Counted from the first letter of the stretch, positions 18,867 through 63,164 are shown. The stretch: DNA of 64,000 nt from Nitrosopumilus sp. (GCA_965238275.1 OZ250186.1:1760001-1824000), one strand, 5' to 3'. A program made the numbers and translations. Notes: generated from the letters alone by a model not told the origin.

Positions 18867-19450
18867 TTCGTGCCTGAACCGCATCACTCCTTACCCACAT
18901 CGAGTCCAAAACCCCCTACCCTTTGGAGTGAAACATGCCATTACACACAGGCACAGGGCAGGCACGCAGGGCCACAACATGCCAATCCGTGCCTAGGTGC
19001 TAAACCCCCCTGCACAGCCACCACACCTAGGCACGATCCCATATTTCCAAAAACGGCCGATTTGAGGGGGGGTTTAGCGTTCGTGCCTAGGGGTGCGATG
19101 CAACCCCCAAACCACCCCGATAGCTCACCAGAACATGCCCAATCTTTTATTTCCGTGCCTGAAAGCTAAACCCCCCAATAATGGGAGTATCCATGAGGCT
19201 ACAGGTGGTTCCAGGCACGCATCAGAATACCAGAATCAGTACAAGACAAGGCAGAGATGCCAATCAGACACGATGCGATATTCCATGTCCAGATTTCATC
19301 TTAGGAACCTTCAACTTTGAAGGCAGTAGGAAAACATTACATAGTGTCCGCGCATCAGAATGGCAAATGCAAACAGGGTACTGCTGTCAGCCTTGGTGAT
19401 TGGAGGCGTTGCAGTATTGTTATTTTTTGTGATCAATAATGAAGAAAATA

Positions 19451-19670
19451 CCATGCCAGAGCCACAGCCAGATGTGTCAAACCAGACCGCTGCCAGTATG
19501 CCTGGAGATGACGCAGACCCCATGCCAGAGCCACAGCCAGATGTGTCAAACCAGACCGCTGCCAGTATGCCGGGAAGTGTCACATACCCCATGCCAGAGC
19601 CACAGCCAGATGTGTCAAACCAGACCGCTGCCAGTATGCCGGGAAGTGTCACAGACCCCATGCCAGAGTC
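19451..19670 (+). repeat. Three 69-bp coding tandem repeats (MPEPQPDVSNQTAASMPG...)
   Basis: Near-identical units starting at ~19451, 19520, 19589. Confidence 0.95.
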
Positions 19671-19809
19671 ATCACGTGAGCATGGCATTCCAATAAATAA
19701 AATCACATGTCCCGATTCAAAAATACCTGTCTACTCCCCGGGCAACAGACCCGTCTGTGTATCTCCCCAGACGGTTCCAATGTTTGGATCTGCGGGTTGG
19801 GAATTACTA

Positions 19810-21323
19810 TAGTGAAAAGCGAAAGTTCGTGCAATTTTTTGAGATCCTTTTTAAGAAAATAAATCCCAACTACAGGTATGATTGTCAGTAAAATCATCAA
19901 GATAACACAATCTCGGGAACTGTCACGCAAGATCGTGAAATGCTCCCGGGAAACAGACATCATTTACGACATGACAATCATGATGAAACTTGCACACTCA
20001 CGGATCACACAGTTTGATGTCAACAACCTGATAACAGGATGGCGCAGGGAATTCAACCTGACCAACAGCGTCCGCATGCATGAGGCCGCCTCAAAACAGG
20101 CTTTCCAGGCGGCAGTCAAATTCCGCAAGGCAAACCGGCTCAAGCACAACAAGCGCATCTGGCGCAAGAAGCAGATCAAGCTGGGGAAAAAGAAGACGTA
20201 CAAGCACAATCGGTGGACCGAGCCGTCCAGCCTGATGAGGCGCGGCAGGAAAACAACCAGGCTGCGCTCGCTGAATTCACGCGGAAAGCCAAAACTGCGA
20301 GACAGTGGAGCCGTGTTTCTGCCCGGACTCGGGGAAGCAAGGCCACGCACGAAGGCTCCGGAAGGCAGGCTCGTGTCATTCCAGATGATTGACACCACGG
20401 GCAAGGTCACGCGTAAGACCAAGGATGGTGATCGCGAATTCAAACTGCATTTGCAGATAGAAGTCCCAGACCCCGAACCCGCGACAGGCGGTGGTGGTGG
20501 CGGCGGATGCAAGGCAGGGCTAGATCTTGGAGTCAGGCACCTTGCGGCAGTCGCAGACGAGCATGGGAACGAAAAACTGCACAATGTCCCCGGAGGCTGC
20601 AAGAGGCATGACGGCGACAGGATTGATCAGCTGAAATCACTTAGATCAAGATGCCAGGCAGGCTCCAGAAGATGGAAAGAGATCGGCCGCAAGGTAACGC
20701 ATGAATTGAAAAAGATATCAAACAGGCAAAAACACAACGAGGCCGACATTGCCAGGCGGATAACAAAAGGACTGTCCGTATTGTTCTTGGAAGATCTGGA
20801 TTTGACCAAGATGAGGCGATCCTGCGGGGCGGCTTCAAAGACGGGGTTGAACCGCGAGATGGCCTATTCCAGAATGGGCGAGTTCAGGATCCAGCTTGAA
20901 TGGCAGATGAAAAAGAAAGGCGGAATTTCAAGACGCGTGGAACCCGCACATACAAGCCAGAGATGCGCTGCCTGCGGGGTAGTGGACAAGAAATCCAGGA
21001 ACGGCGAATCATTTGTCTGCACCTCATGCGGATGGTGCCACCATGCCGACAAGAACGCGGCAAAAAACATTTTGGATAATGACTGTCTCCATACGGAGGA
21101 GACTGGCGGCCAAGCCCACGGGAATCGTGGAGGCACCATTGCAGGTGTCGAGGTCGTCACAAGGCGCGAGGATCACGGATCGGATGGTTCTGGAATGAAC
21201 AATTCGACAGGTCGGCTTGGATCCGACAACGACGACAATATTGGAAGGTCTGACAGAGCGCCGGAAAGAGCATCAGGACATGCTACAGAGAGATCTGTTT
21301 GCACGAACTTTCGCTCGCCGCTA
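19810..21323 (+). mobile_element. TnpB-only element with terminal inverted repeats and TA target duplication, copy 1
   Basis: Left end TAGTGAAAAGCGAAAGTTCGTGCAA; right end reverse complement TAGCGGCGAGCGAAAGTTCGTGCAA; TA at 19808-9 and 21324-5; boundaries confirmed by second copy. Confidence 0.9.
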
Positions 21324-21389
21324 TACCAAATGTATCCCCCGGGCAGGATTATTTACCGCCCCCAATGCACTGTGATAAAATATGGGTGA
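19878..21389 (+). CDS. tnpB: RNA-guided endonuclease TnpB (reads through the element end)
   Basis: RuvC-I GLDLG, RuvC-II LFLEDL, TSQRCAACG/FVCTSCG zinc ribbon, RuvC-III HADKNAAKNI. Confidence 0.93.
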   Translation: MIVSKIIKITQSRELSRKIVKCSRETDIIYDMTIMMKLAHSRITQFDVNNLITGWRREFNLTNSVRMHEAASKQAFQAAVKFRKANRLKHNKRIWRKKQIKLGKKKTYKHNRWTEPSSLMRRGRKTTRLRSLNSRGKPKLRDSGAVFLPGLGEARPRTKAPEGRLVSFQMIDTTGKVTRKTKDGDREFKLHLQIEVPDPEPATGGGGGGGCKAGLDLGVRHLAAVADEHGNEKLHNVPGGCKRHDGDRIDQLKSLRSRCQAGSRRWKEIGRKVTHELKKISNRQKHNEADIARRITKGLSVLFLEDLDLTKMRRSCGAASKTGLNREMAYSRMGEFRIQLEWQMKKKGGISRRVEPAHTSQRCAACGVVDKKSRNGESFVCTSCGWCHHADKNAAKNILDNDCLHTEETGGQAHGNRGGTIAGVEVVTRREDHGSDGSGMNNSTGRLGSDNDDNIGRSDRAPERASGHATERSVCTNFRSPLYQMYPPGRIIYRPQCTVIKYG

Positions 21390-22189
21390 TGTCTCCAATC
21401 GGAGATCTGGGATGCGTGGAATGGTATACTGGTGTGGAGTTGGTATCTCAGAAATGGCTGGCCTTGGATCGTCATCCTGATGCTGAAAAGTATGGGCCCG
21501 AGATAGTTCGATATTTCACGCCCCATGCCGAAACCCAGCCAATTCTTAATCATACCGTGACGCTGTCTCTGTCAGAACTGCCAATAGTTGGACAGAATGT
21601 GACTGTCACTGCTACCGTGGAATCTGATGAGGCTGCCTCTGAAAGGAACTCGAGGGTAGAGTTTCTGTTTATGGGCGCATTGAACGTCACATCATCACAT
21701 CCCGATGTTAATCCCGGTTCCCATGATGAATATTATCCAGGTACCTACTTTTCTACGCCATCAATTGCCCTGACACCTGGCGGAACACACCAATTCAACA
21801 TGAATGTGGTGCCAACTGCAGAGGCTCTTGCCCTCATATCTGTTCGACTTCCATCATGGGGTTTTGCCGTAAACGATGATCGTATCTACCTCTCAATTGG
21901 AAGTCAAAAATCAGGCTACCAGTTGGACAAGGATTCACATGCACGGGACCCTGATGTCAACTATGTCTGGACTGAAAGGACAATCCCGCAGTGTGTCTAT
22001 TATCCTTGGGATGAAACCGGTCAGACAATACAGCAATATTATGCGGATTTGGGGATCGTCGTTCTGGAAACAAAGTATCCGTCTTATCCATTTGTCGTCT
22101 GTATGGCATGTGGTTGCTATGGTAACTCAGTTTTATTTTTAATACCTGAGTCAGATTATGATCAGGTGCCCAGTCTGGACGAATGGGTG

Positions 22190-22320
22190 AATCCCCAGTC
22201 CGATCATCAGTAATCCTGACTGCCAGAATTCTTTTTGTATTCGTGTCCACCAGAACGCGCATCTTTACAAATCTGCGTCTTGCCTGTCACTTTTGCCTTA
22301 TCCGCCCCCCCCCCTGAATG
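22190..22320 (-). pseudogene. IS5-family transposase remnant
   Basis: RRFVKMRVLVDTNTKRILAVRITDDRTGDSP with upstream stop. Confidence 0.6.
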
Positions 22321-61540: not shown

Positions 61541-61560
61541 GAATGCGCAAAATCATGCTA

Positions 61561-63161
61561 TAGTGAAAAGCGAAAGTTCGTGCAATTTTTTGAGATCCTT
61601 TTTAAGAAAATAAATCCCAACTACAGAGACATAATCCGTAATAGGCAGTTTTGGGTCATTTCGTGCCTAGCATCTATTCCCACTTTGTGCCTAACGACTA
61701 ATTACGGATTACGTCTCAGGTATGATTGTCAGTAAAATCATCAAGATAACACAATCTCGGGAACTGTCACGCAAGATCGTGAAATGCTCCCGGGAAACAG
61801 ACATCATTTACGACATGACAATCATGATGAAACTTGCACACTCACGGATCACACAGTTTGATGTCAACAACCTGATAACAGGATGGCGCAGGGAATTCAA
61901 CCTGACCAACAGCGTCCGCATGCATGAGGCCGCCTCAAAACAGGCTTTCCAGGCGGCAGTCAAATTCCGCAAGGCAAACCGGCTCAAGCACAACAAGCGC
62001 ATCTGGCGCAAGAAGCAGATCAAGCTGGGGAAAAAGAAGACGTACAAGCACAATCGGTGGACCGAGCCGTCCAGCCTGATGAGGCGCGGCAGGAAAACAA
62101 CCAGGCTGCGCTCGCTGAATTCACGCGGAAAGCCAAAACTGCGAGACAGTGGGGCGGTATTTCTGCCCGGACTCGGGGAAGCAAGGCCACGCACGAAGGT
62201 TCCAGAAGGCAGGCTCGTGTCGTTCCAGATGATTGACGCCACAGGCAAGGTCACGCGTAAGACCAAGGATGGTGATCGCGAATTCAAACTGCATTTGCAG
62301 ATAGAAGTCCCAGACCCCGAACCCGCGACAGGCGGTGGCCGCGGATGCAAGGCAGGGCTGGATCTTGGAGTCAGGCACCTTGCGGCAGTCGCAGACGAGC
62401 ATGGGAACGAAAAACTGCACAATGTCCCCGGAGGCTGCAAGAGGCATGACGGCGACAGGATTGATCAGCTGAAATCACTTAGATCAAGATGCCAGGCAGG
62501 CTCCAGAAGATGGAAAGAGATCGGCCGCAAGGTAACGCATGAATTGAAAAAGATATCAAACAGGCAAAAACACAACGAGATCGACATTGCCAGGCGGATA
62601 ACAAAAGGACTGTCCGTATTGTTCCTGGAAGACCTGGATTTGACCAAGATGAGGCGATCCTGCGGGGCGGCTTCAAAGACGGGGTTGAACCGCGAGATGG
62701 CCTATTCCAGAATGGGCGAGTTCAGGATCCAGCTTGAATGGCAGATGAAAAAGAAAGGCGGAATTTCAAGACGCGTGGAACACGCACATACAAGCCAGAG
62801 GTGCGCTGCCTGCGGGGTAGTGGACAAGAAATCCAGGAACGGCGAATCATTTGTCTGCGTCTCATGCGGATGGTGCCACCATGCCGACAAGAACGCGGCA
62901 AAAAACATTTTGGATAATGACTGTCTCCATACGGAGGAGACTGGCGGCCAAGCCCACGGGAATCGTGGAGGCACCATTGCAGGTGTCGAGGTCGTCACAA
63001 GGCGCGAGGATCACGGATCGGATGGTTCTGGAATGAACAATTCGACAGGTCGGCTTGGACCCGGCAACGACGACAATATTGGAAGGTCTGACAGAGCGCC
63101 GGAAAGAGCATCAGGACACGCTACAGAGAGATCTGTTTGCACGAACTTTCGCTCGCCGCTA
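61561..63161 (+). mobile_element. TnpB-only TIR element, copy 2
   Basis: Same TIRs as copy 1; TA at 61559-60 and 63162-63; empty site reconstructs to GCTAG. Confidence 0.9.
61627..61716. mobile_element. 90-bp MITE inserted upstream of tnpB
   Basis: Absent from copy 1; inverted ends AGAC(A/G)TAATCCGTAAT; CAG duplicated at 61624-26 and 61717-19. Confidence 0.85.
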
Positions 63162-63164
63162 TAG
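61722..63164 (+). CDS. tnpB: RNA-guided endonuclease TnpB
   Basis: Near-identical to 19878 copy; D/E/D intact; stop TAG formed by the target site. Confidence 0.93.
   Translation: MIVSKIIKITQSRELSRKIVKCSRETDIIYDMTIMMKLAHSRITQFDVNNLITGWRREFNLTNSVRMHEAASKQAFQAAVKFRKANRLKHNKRIWRKKQIKLGKKKTYKHNRWTEPSSLMRRGRKTTRLRSLNSRGKPKLRDSGAVFLPGLGEARPRTKVPEGRLVSFQMIDATGKVTRKTKDGDREFKLHLQIEVPDPEPATGGGRGCKAGLDLGVRHLAAVADEHGNEKLHNVPGGCKRHDGDRIDQLKSLRSRCQAGSRRWKEIGRKVTHELKKISNRQKHNEIDIARRITKGLSVLFLEDLDLTKMRRSCGAASKTGLNREMAYSRMGEFRIQLEWQMKKKGGISRRVEHAHTSQRCAACGVVDKKSRNGESFVCVSCGWCHHADKNAAKNILDNDCLHTEETGGQAHGNRGGTIAGVEVVTRREDHGSDGSGMNNSTGRLGPGNDDNIGRSDRAPERASGHATERSVCTNFRSPL

What the first reader, a model, noticed from the sequence alone, without database searches (positions are those of the whole stretch)
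19810..21323. TnpB-only transposon with IS630/Tc1-mariner-type ends, present twice
Seen: two near-identical elements (19810-21323, 61561-63161) encode only TnpB with intact RuvC D/E/D and a zinc ribbon. They are bounded by 25-bp TIRs (21/25 identical, 17-bp perfect core AGCGAAAGTTCGTGCAA) and flanked by duplicated TA. Empty sites reconstruct to CTAC and CTAG, and the first restores the reading frame of the interrupted gene. Established: IS200/IS605 and IS607 elements, the usual tnpB hosts, have no TIRs and make no target duplication, whereas TA duplication with CTAG preference is the IS630 signature; eukaryotic Fanzors occur in Tc1/mariner elements. Inference: an archaeal non-autonomous IS630-type element has captured a canonical TnpB and is mobilised in trans by a DDE transposase, a Fanzor-like architecture in an archaeon.
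Basis: partly seen in the sequence, partly recalled or inferred. Interest (0 to 1): 0.9.

Follow-up and report, generated by a model that had tools for sequence, protein, structure and literature searches.

The report
TnpB transposon with IS630-type ends
A 1.5-kb jumping element in an ammonia-oxidising archaeon carries only the RNA-guided nuclease TnpB and its guide RNA, has the ends and TA duplication of an IS630-type transposon, and probably borrows that transposon's enzyme; this kind of association has already been described.

Summary
Both window copies have 25-bp inverted ends and flanking TA, and they belong to a family of about 22 near-full copies in this 2.2-Mb genome. Two paralogous empty sites, one TG/TG copy and frame restoration of the interrupted ORF show a real 2-bp duplication.

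The genome has no Y1 or serine TnpA. It has 35 IS630-type (DDE_3) matches, and one IS630 subgroup of 4 elements has ends up to 21/25 identical to the TnpB element's. A same-genus genome (G017) repeats the pattern with TnpBs only 46-57% identical.

TnpB is under purifying selection (dN/dS 0.15-0.22). The last ~235 nt form a covariation-supported omegaRNA whose final helix uses right-end repeat bases.

The left flank always has C before the TA (39/39). The right flank has it in 16/41 ends and IS630 ends in 10/19. This looks like a TAM.

Altae-Tran et al. 2023 described IS630-linked TnpBs with symmetrical ends and solo TnpBs mobilised in trans. This is a clean archaeal example: a new member of a known kind, of moderate interest.

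The parts
19808..19809 (.). Left TA of the target-site duplication, copy 1. It is preceded by C at 19807, the candidate TAM base.
19810..19834 (+). Left-end 25-bp terminal inverted repeat (LE), copy 1.
19835..19877 (+). A/T-rich leader between LE and the tnpB ATG. That it holds the promoter is inferred, not tested.
   Evidence: sequence only
19878..21323 (+). tnpB ORF, copy 1. Homology to TnpB ends about aa 400. The frame has no stop in the element and stays open to 21389.
21086..21316 (+). omegaRNA (reRNA) scaffold overlapping the 3' tail of the ORF, copy 1. Coordinates are transferred from copy 2 with a constant offset of 41838.
21299..21323 (-). Right-end 25-bp terminal inverted repeat (RE), copy 1. 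Its bases GCTC pair with GAGC about 45 nt upstream in the last omegaRNA helix.
21324..21325 (.). Right TA of the duplication, copy 1.
19360..19809 (+). N-terminal part of the ORF interrupted by copy 1. It is a repeat-rich orphan protein.
21326..22213 (+). C-terminal part of the interrupted ORF. The frame is restored only if 1516 bp are removed.
   Evidence: no homologue in 90 other genus genomes
61559..61560 (.). Left TA, copy 2.
61561..61585 (+). LE inverted repeat, copy 2.
61627..61716 (.). 90-bp MITE (ends GAGACRTAATCCGTAAT, flanked by CAG/CAG) inserted into the leader of copy 2. It is not part of the TnpB element.
   Evidence: 12 further matches of 95.9-100% identity in the genome, plus one at 78%
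61722..63164 (+). tnpB ORF, copy 2 (480 aa). D214 = 62361-62363, E303 = 62628-62630, D389 = 62886-62888. The stop TAG is made of the flanking TA + g.
62924..63154 (+). omegaRNA scaffold, copy 2 (alignment A1 columns 78-314).
63137..63161 (-). RE inverted repeat, copy 2.
63162..63163 (.). Right TA, copy 2.

Best explanation
This is a non-autonomous IS630-type (IS630/Tc1/mariner superfamily) cut-and-paste transposon. Its only cargo is a complete OMEGA module: tnpB plus an omegaRNA.

Shown:
- 25-bp inverted ends.
- Insertion at TA with a 2-bp duplication.
- About 22 near-full copies, 13 of them with an intact 480-aa frame.
- Purifying selection on TnpB.
- A conserved structured RNA in the last ~235 nt that runs into the right-end repeat.
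- Ends belonging to the same sequence family as those of one IS630 transposase subgroup in the same genome.
- No Y1 or serine TnpA in the genome.

Inferred:
- The IS630 transposase of that subgroup binds the shared ends and moves the element in trans.
- Transcription of the omegaRNA runs through the right end into the flank, so each copy gets a guide that matches its own insertion site.
- TnpB reads the invariant C (with T at -5 in this genome, and A or G in the relative) just 5' of the left TA as its TAM. It therefore cuts the unoccupied or precisely excised site (..TnC-TA-right flank), and recombination with an occupied copy restores the element. This is the homing or retention role shown for IS605 TnpB.
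For: Structure and copies. blastn of copy 1 against the genome gives about 22 near-full copies at 81-100% identity, plus fragments. 13 loci cover residues 1-480 without a stop.

Duplication. TA flanks 20 of 21 left ends and 23 of 24 right ends. The one exception has TG on both sides. The empty paralogues read ttc-AA-cgcac against ttcTA[el]TAcgcac, and cagc-CA-gtacc against cagcTA[el]TAgtacc. The frame of the interrupted ORF is restored only by removing 1516 bp.

Transposase. There are 0 matches to PF01797 and 0 to PF00239, and 35 matches to DDE_3. IS630 elements P, A, B and C have TA-flanked ends TA[G/C]TGACG[C/A][G/T]CAAAAGT... The P 3' end matches the TnpB RE at 21/25. P is an intact 337-aa IS630 transposase. 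Three other IS630 groups in the genome whose ends were read have unrelated ends.

Replication in a second genome. G017, of the same genus, has three TnpB subfamilies (46-57% identical), each bounded by ends of this type plus TA (16 elements with both ends), alongside IS630 elements with matching ends. TnpBs with IS630-type ends form one clade with 100/100 support.

TnpB function. Core dN/dS is 0.15-0.22 in 7 of 8 copy pairs and 0.40 in the least diverged pair. The D/E/D residues and the zinc ribbon are invariant.

omegaRNA. RNAalifold predicts 61 pairs, 22 with compensatory changes. 96.9% of cells are paired, against 32-49% when partners are slid, and 0 of 500 shuffles reach the observed score. 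dS in the ORF tail is 0.02-0.34 against 0.12-1.03 in the core.

Candidate TAM. C at -3 occurs in 39/39 left flanks, 16/41 right flanks and 10/19 IS630 ends (Fisher 3e-10 and 9e-6). The C is present in the empty paralogues, so it comes from the target. At -5, T occurs in 17/21 left flanks in G000 but in 1/16 in G017, where it is A in 11 and G in 4.
Against: - No transposition, RNA or cleavage experiment exists for this element.
- The best identity between a TnpB-element end and an IS630 end within one genome is 21/25, not a perfect match. Cross-recognition is therefore plausible but unproven.
- No contig in the two DNA-type runs joins across the element, so no natural empty allele was seen. Contigs drop rare variants, so this is weak evidence.
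- DDE cut-and-paste excision already leaves a double-strand break, so the benefit of a homing nuclease is less obvious than for IS605. The review PMC13565253 makes this argument.
- The flank counts include related copies. Two G017 elements share the same 10-nt left flank, so the tests overstate independence.
- T at -5 is also enriched on the right side (13/24). Part of the flank signal is therefore transposase preference.
Confidence: 0.75

Rival explanations
1. Same element and same trans-mobilisation, but the invariant C at the left flank is a target or orientation preference of the IS630 transposase, which sees two different ends. Under this reading it is not a TnpB TAM, and TnpB's role is something else or is dispensable.
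For: IS630 is known to prefer CTAG (recalled; the review PMC13565253 states only TA). C is the commonest base at -3 at IS630 ends too (10/19) and at right ends (16/41). The L and R repeats differ at positions 4-9, so asymmetric binding is conceivable.
Against: The autonomous IS630 elements also have two different ends, yet neither shows an invariant C: 5/11 at 5' ends and 5/9 at 3' ends by hand tally; one end is counted under both end types, since one search counts 10 of 19 ends in all. The -5 base differs between TnpB lineages, with T in G000 and A/G in G017, although the IS630 ends are alike. The position, immediately 5' of LE on the omegaRNA-sense strand, is exactly where TnpB TAMs lie (established for ISDra2; recalled).
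Confidence: 0.3
2. TnpB is a decaying passenger. The element spreads only as an IS630 MITE-like parasite, and neither the nuclease nor the RNA is functional.
For: Several copies are broken by stops, MITEs or nested ISs. G322 holds only one pseudogenised copy and two fragments.
Against: dN/dS is 0.15-0.22 between copies that differ by dS 0.3-1.0. The catalytic D/E/D and the zinc ribbon are invariant across 44-58% identical lineages. 22 RNA pairs carry compensatory changes. 13 copies are intact.
Confidence: 0.08
3. The element is moved by some other enzyme: a different DDE family, an IS200/IS605 or IS607 TnpA now lost, or TnpB itself. The similarity to IS630 ends would then be coincidental or convergent.
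For: No direct test of the transposase-end pairing exists. The genome carries many other transposases, including IS5-like, IS66, rve and IS110.
Against: TIRs plus a TA duplication exclude IS605/IS607 chemistry. No Y1 or serine enzyme is present. The ends share TA-TAsTGAC..C.AAAGTT with IS630 elements in two genomes, including lineage-specific outer bases. A 17-25-nt match of this kind is not expected by chance.
Confidence: 0.05

Closest known systems
IS630-linked TnpBs, 'DDE-6' branch (Altae-Tran et al. 2023, PNAS, PMC10691335; passages read)
   Same: TnpB sits inside symmetrical (inverted-repeat) ends of an IS630-family transposon. The TnpB 3' end lies within 250 bp of the transposon end. The paper reports solo TnpBs inside the same ends and proposes mobilisation in trans. 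It also proposes a link to Fanzors.
   Different: DDE-6 elements co-encode the IS630 DDE transposase and a separate HTH protein. Here, no TnpB copy in G000 or G017 was seen with a DDE_3 gene inside its repeat pair, apart from one nested insertion (by comparing coordinates), and the partner IS630 elements carry no TnpB. The host is a Nitrosopumilus-type archaeon. Whether this clade is part of DDE-6 could not be checked because the supplements are closed.
Fanzor1 in IS630/Tc1/mariner-type elements of eukaryotes and giant viruses (Yoon et al. 2023, PMC10711439; Chlamydomonas giant-virus preprint 10.1101/2024.09.03.611062; review PMC13565253)
   Same: The nuclease and its guide RNA sit in a TIR/TA-duplicating DDE transposon. 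The reRNA scaffold includes TIR bases. Nuclease-only non-autonomous copies exist. The 5' duplication lies next to or within the TAM.
   Different: This protein is a canonical-size prokaryotic TnpB. It matches the viral TnpB-like L79 (9b0l, E 1.1e-8) no better than ISDra2 TnpB (9e-9). The host is an archaeon. No tree with Fanzors was built.
IS200/IS605 and IS607 elements, including TnpB-only (IS1341-type) derivatives
   Same: The OMEGA module is the same: TnpB with a RuvC D/E/D site and a zinc ribbon, an omegaRNA overlapping the 3' end of tnpB and reaching the right end, and the guide taken from the flank.
   Different: Those elements have no TIRs and no duplication, and they use Y1 or serine TnpA. 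Here there are 25-bp TIRs and a TA duplication, and neither enzyme is in the genome.
Non-autonomous IS630/Tc1-mariner derivatives (MITE-like elements mobilised in trans)
   Same: They share ends with an autonomous IS630, make a TA duplication, occur in high copy number and encode no transposase.
   Different: This one carries a 1.4-kb functional-looking cargo gene plus RNA under purifying selection.

Membership tests
TnpB / OMEGA RNA-guided nuclease | Split RuvC domain with catalytic D, E, D | tested here: met
   Pfam OrfB_IS605 (E 1e-11). NCBIfam guided_TnpB at 117 bits, cut-off 100. D214, E303 and D389 are invariant in A2. The protein aligns to TnpB structures 8bf8/8h1j.
TnpB / OMEGA RNA-guided nuclease | C4 zinc ribbon between RuvC-II and RuvC-III | tested here: met
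   Pfam Cas12f1-like_TNB at 60-64 bits. C361, C364, C379 and C382 are invariant.
TnpB / OMEGA RNA-guided nuclease | Structured omegaRNA overlapping the 3' end of tnpB and ending at the right transposon end | tested here: met
   61 pairs, 22 of them compensatory. 96.9% of cells are paired, against 32-49% in slid controls. 0 of 500 shuffles reach the observed score. No Rfam family matched.
TnpB / OMEGA RNA-guided nuclease | TAM-dependent RNA-guided DNA cleavage | not testable with these tools
   Only indirect evidence: the left-flank C occurs in 39/39 elements.
IS630 family (IS630/Tc1/mariner) transposon | Terminal inverted repeats | tested here: met
   25 bp, 21/25 identical, present at all paired copies.
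IS630 family (IS630/Tc1/mariner) transposon | Insertion at TA with a 2-bp TA duplication | tested here: met
   TA at 43 of 45 ends in G000, the other two being TG/TG on one copy. Two paralogous empty sites. Frame restoration.
IS630 family (IS630/Tc1/mariner) transposon | Encodes a DDE_3 / IS630-family transposase | tested here: not met
   The only family-matching ORF in the element is tnpB. The element is therefore a non-autonomous derivative, not an IS630 in the strict sense.
IS630 family (IS630/Tc1/mariner) transposon | Ends recognised by an IS630 transposase | tested here: inconclusive
   The ends are up to 21/25 identical to the ends of IS630 elements P, A, B and C in G000, and similarly in G017. 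Binding was not tested.
IS200/IS605 or IS607 | Y1 HUH or serine TnpA; no TIR and no duplication; subterminal hairpins or GG ends | tested here: not met
   0 matches to PF01797 and 0 to PF00239 in a 99.9%-complete genome. TIRs and a duplication are present.
DDE-6 branch of TnpB (Altae-Tran 2023) | TnpB co-encoded with an IS630 DDE and an HTH protein inside symmetrical ends; placement in that tree branch | tested here: inconclusive
   Symmetrical IS630-type ends: met. Co-encoded transposase: not seen in G000 or G017 (coordinates). Tree placement could not be tested because the SI tables and Additional Files 10-11 are closed.
Fanzor1 | Eukaryotic or giant-virus host; divergent, enlarged TnpB-like protein | tested here: not met
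   The host genome is archaeal; a same-genus record is titled Nitrosopumilus. There is no special sequence affinity to the viral TnpB-like L79. The viral-contig scan found none.

The most novel reading that the evidence does not exclude
The invariant (T/R)-N-C just before the left TA is the TAM of these TnpBs. A prokaryotic cut-and-paste DDE transposon would then use an RNA-guided nuclease whose TAM abuts or includes its own target-site duplication, in order to home into empty sites. That is the Fanzor1 logic, already assembled in an archaeon. This TnpB clade would have acquired it by swapping an older set of ends (GGGAATTAYATAC-type, seen in its sister lineages) for IS630 ends in a single event.
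Probability: 0.4. Interest if true: 0.65.

Novelty: new member of a known kind. Interest (0 to 1): 0.45.

Why it matters
The association of TnpB with DDE transposons is described as rare in prokaryotes, and its logic is debated (review PMC13565253). This genome offers a clean natural case for studying it:
- One complete chromosome with about 22 copies and no IS605/IS607 enzyme at all.
- An identifiable candidate partner transposase.
- A covariation-supported omegaRNA embedded in the inverted repeat.
- A flank signature that predicts the TAM.

It gives a directly testable prokaryotic counterpart to Fanzor1 in mariner-type elements. It also supplies compact TnpB/omegaRNA pairs with a short predicted TAM. 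It does not overturn anything already known.

Tried and rejected
1. Orthologous empty site. A DNA search with window 19100-22100 in 60 other genomes of the genus found TnpB relatives only in G017, and otherwise only matches of 83 nt or less at the far left of the query. No orthologous locus was found.

2. Homologue of the interrupted ORF. A protein search with 21326-22213 found nothing in 90 other genus genomes. That the two ORF halves are one gene therefore rests on frame arithmetic alone.

3. Rfam. There is no family for the 3' RNA; only two sub-threshold chance hits appeared.

4. Public reads. Four runs were laid, all held as contigs.
   - No contig joins across the element, so no empty allele was seen.
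   - Contigs of the two DNA-type runs break at 19807 and at 21325/21326 into several different flanks, which fits the repeat boundaries.
   - Contigs from two RNA libraries cover most of the element and run past 21325. Contigs cannot show that this is RNA rather than DNA carry-over, nor where a transcript ends.

5. A composite TnpB + IS630 element at genome 883621-891002 was rejected. The 5.9-kb insert is a nest of IS5-like, IS66, rve and IS630 ORFs that splits the tnpB gene.

6. The viral-contig scan with A2 found no relative.

7. The genome contigs pattern scan found the family only in the G017 record. An HMM search of 400 other genomes of the class added one decayed copy in G322.

8. Earlier findings of this scan held nothing on this genome or this protein.

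9. No Fanzor/TnpB tree was built, because no Fanzor sequences were available from a tool.

Full report
**Observation**

Copy 1 (19810-21323) and copy 2 (61561-63161) begin with TAGTGAAAAGCGAAAGTTCGTGCAA and end with the reverse complement of TAGCGGCGAGCGAAAGTTCGTGCAA. That is 21/25 identical, with a 17-bp perfect core, and each copy has TA outside both ends. The 17-mer occurs 4 times in the window against 0.14 expected.

Each copy holds one long ORF. It matches Pfam OrfB_IS605 and Cas12f1-like_TNB and NCBIfam guided_TnpB above its cut-off. It aligns to solved TnpBs over residues ~172-398.

Copy 2 is 87 bp longer for two reasons. A 90-bp MITE plus its 3-bp CAG duplication sits between the left end and the ATG, and there is a 6-nt deletion elsewhere. 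The tnpB frame has no stop inside the element.

**A family, not a pair**

The window lies in a single 2,216,668-bp contig with 52.7% G+C. A record of the same genus is titled Nitrosopumilus.

blastn of copy 1 finds about 22 near-full copies at 81-100% identity, plus fragments. 18 of these have both ends recognisable. 13 loci cover TnpB residues 1-480 without a stop.

**The duplication is real**

- TA flanks 20 of 21 left ends and 23 of 24 right ends. The one exception (genome 2157231-2158720) has TG on both sides.
- Two copies landed in repeated DNA, and their empty paralogues survive. These read ttc-AA-cgcac against ttcTA[element]TAcgcac, and cagc-CA-gtacc against cagcTA[element]TAgtacc. Two nucleotides in the empty site become 2 + 2 in the filled one.
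- Removing 1516 bp (the element plus one TA) extends the ORF starting at 19360 from 150 to 445 aa. Removing 1514 or 1518 bp does not. No homologue of that ORF was found in 90 other genus genomes, so the one-gene argument rests on arithmetic only.

**Which enzyme moves it**

The genome is 99.9% complete. It has no match to Y1_Tnp (PF01797) or Resolvase (PF00239), although the control genomes do. It has 35 DDE_3 matches.

Three IS630 groups whose ends were read have unrelated ends. One subgroup of 4 elements shares the end pattern TA|TA[G/C]TGACG[C/A][G/T]CAAAAGT. These elements lie at genome 1873253-1874347 (P), 276889-277961 (A), ~1281870-1282965 (B) and ~2123850-2124945 (C).

The P 3' end is 21/25 identical to the TnpB right end. 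P encodes an intact 337-aa protein that matches the IS630 equivalog NF033545 (175 bits, cut-off 100) and carries HTH + DDE_3 domains. C has a 338-aa open frame, B has 242 aa, and A has two stops.

**Independent replication**

Among 60 other genomes of the genus, only G017 holds relatives. An HMM search of 400 other genomes of the class added one decayed copy in G322, and otherwise only more distant TnpBs.

G017 carries three subfamilies, 46-57% identical to the window's protein. Each is bounded by ends of the type TA|TA[C/G][T/C]GAC[A/G]CGC[A/C]AAAGT. 16 elements had both ends read. G017 also has IS630 elements with matching ends.

By comparing coordinates, no TnpB copy in G000 or G017 has a DDE_3 gene inside its repeat pair. 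The one apparent exception is genome 883621-891002, where a 5.9-kb nest of IS5-like, IS66, rve and IS630 ORFs splits the tnpB gene.

In a maximum-likelihood tree of 23 TnpBs from this class, the 7 rows with IS630-type ends form one clade with 100/100 support. Their neighbours carry a different inverted repeat, GGGAATTAYATAC.... One acquisition of IS630 ends is therefore the simplest reading. The polarity is not resolved, because the neighbours form a polytomy.

**The cargo looks functional**

- D214, E303, D389 and the four zinc-ribbon cysteines are invariant across lineages that are 44-58% identical.
- Between diverged copies in this genome, dN/dS of the core is 0.15-0.22 in 7 of 8 pairs and 0.40 in the least diverged pair.
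- Homology to TnpB stops at about residue 398 of 480. In the remaining tail, synonymous divergence collapses to dS 0.02-0.34, against 0.12-1.03 in the core.
- An alignment of the last 300 nt plus 20 nt of flank from 15 elements (9 from G000, 6 from G017) was folded. RNAalifold gives 61 pairs, 22 of them with compensatory double changes.
- With that structure, 96.9% of cells pair, against 32-49% when partners are slid by 1-3 columns. 0 of 500 shuffles reach the observed covariation.
- The well-supported helices span window 62924-63154. The last one pairs GAGC with GCTC inside the right inverted repeat. This may be why the left and right repeats differ at positions 4-9.
- Rfam has no matching family.

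This is the anatomy of an omegaRNA. Yoon et al. 2023 describe a Fanzor1 reRNA that includes TIR bases (PMC10711439; passages read).

**A left-flank signature**

Reading toward the element, the base before the left TA is C in 39 of 39 elements: 22 in G000, 16 in G017 and 1 in G322. The mirror position at the right end is C in 16 of 41. At the ends of the cognate IS630 elements it is C in 10 of 19 (Fisher 3e-10 and 9e-6). The C is present in the empty paralogues, so it belongs to the target and not to the element.

Two positions further out, G000 elements have T in 17/21. G017 elements have A in 11/16 or G in 4/16, and T in 1/16. T is also enriched on the right side in G000 (13/24), so part of that signal may be transposase preference.

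The copies are related, and two G017 elements share the same flank, so the p-values overstate independence.

The position is immediately 5' of the left end, on the strand of the omegaRNA. That is where TnpB TAMs lie in IS605 elements (recalled). The review PMC13565253 states that in Fanzors the 5' duplication is read as part of the TAM. I read the motif as a candidate TAM, with odds of about 50%.

**Mechanism proposed**

Shown: this is a TA-duplicating, TIR-bounded, multi-copy element. It carries a selected TnpB and a structured 3' RNA. Its ends are shared with one IS630 subgroup, and no IS605/IS607 enzyme is present.

Inferred:
- That IS630 transposase moves the element in trans.
- Read-through past the right end gives each copy a guide for its own site.
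- TnpB cuts the unoccupied site (..(T/R)NC-TA-flank), and recombination reinstates the element.

**Public reads**

These added little. All four runs were held as contigs.
- Contigs in two DNA-type runs break at 19807 and at 21325/21326 into several different flanks, which agrees with the boundaries.
- No contig bridges an empty site.
- Contigs from two metatranscriptome libraries cover most of the element and extend past 21325. This cannot prove transcription.

**Comparison with what is known**

Altae-Tran et al. 2023 (PMC10691335; passages read) report the following:
- A 'DDE-6' branch of TnpBs associated with IS630 transposases plus a separate HTH protein.
- Symmetrical ends.
- Inverted repeats around all six DDE-associated groups.
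- A possible link to Fanzors.

The 2026 review PMC13565253 repeats this. A preprint on a Chlamydomonas giant endogenous virus describes Fanzor + IS630/Tc1/mariner elements with nuclease-only derivatives.

The searches gave these counts of papers:
- TnpB + IS630: 16
- Fanzor + IS630: 4
- TnpB + Nitrosopumilus: 0
- TnpB + Thaumarchaeota: 1, irrelevant
- TnpB + TIR + TSD + DDE transposase: 4

No description of this archaeal family turned up. The supplements of the PNAS paper, which list all loci and ends, were closed, so the family may already be tabulated there.

**Verdict**

The kind is already in print, so I file this as a new member of a known kind. It is set apart by being an apparently obligate TnpB-only lineage with a separate TnpB-less IS630 partner in an archaeon, and by the left-flank signature that predicts its TAM. 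Interest is moderate (0.45).

Noticed in passing
window 61627-61716; also genome 615464-615558 and 643112-643206 inside two other TnpB copies: A 90-bp MITE with 17-nt inverted ends GAGACRTAATCCGTAAT, flanked by CAG/CAG. The genome holds 12 further matches of 95.9-100% identity. In copy 2 it separates the presumed promoter region from the tnpB ATG.
   Followed up: partly
genome 827296-828590 (L104), 2148614-2149882, 503013-504375, ~1289005-1289820: An IS110-family element (DEDD_Tnp_IS110 + Transposase_20, split into two ORFs) is inserted at the same position (..AAAG^TT..) of the IS630-type inverted repeat in four places: the left ends of three TnpB elements from two subfamilies, and one IS630-like end. 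This suggests sequence-specific targeting of this repeat, as IS110/IS1111 elements do with other repeats.
   Followed up: partly
genome 1130185-1131612 (1.43 kb); loci L086-L093, L096, L102 from eight other genomes: A second, more widespread thaumarchaeal TnpB group (31-35% identical) is bounded by a different inverted repeat, GGGAATTAYATAC... (13-28 bp). In 3 of about 8 examined elements there are identical 6-bp direct repeats on both sides (AGAATC, AAACGG, TTAAAT). The others, including the G000 copy, have none. The mobilising enzyme is unknown. This genome has no Y1 or serine TnpA for this group either.
   Followed up: partly
genome ~170473-172895, minus strand (L080 3974-6396): A third TnpB (360 aa, with HTH_OrfB_IS605) lies directly upstream of a DDE_Tnp_4 (IS5-like) transposase ORF. 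The unit has paralogues near 576 kb and at the site hit by TnpB copy 883621. It may be another DDE-associated TnpB.
   Followed up: no
genome 883621-891002 (L081): One TnpB copy is split by a 5.9-kb nest of IS5-like, IS66, rve-type and IS630 transposase ORFs. With 35 DDE_3 matches in 2.2 Mb, the genome is unusually rich in insertion sequences.
   Followed up: partly
genome 2157231-2158720: One of the most diverged full copies (79% protein identity) has TG instead of TA on both sides. This is a non-canonical target that was still duplicated.
   Followed up: yes
window 19360-19812: The interrupted ORF encodes three tandem copies of a ~23-aa unit (PMPEPQPDVSNQTAASMPG..) after a hydrophobic N-terminus. 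No homologue was found in 90 other genomes of the genus.
   Followed up: partly
genome 35140-35491 and 193617-194028: Two fragments keep only the last 352-412 nt (omegaRNA region plus right end) of the element. No left end was seen beside them. Whether they act as stand-alone guide RNA loci was not examined.
   Followed up: no
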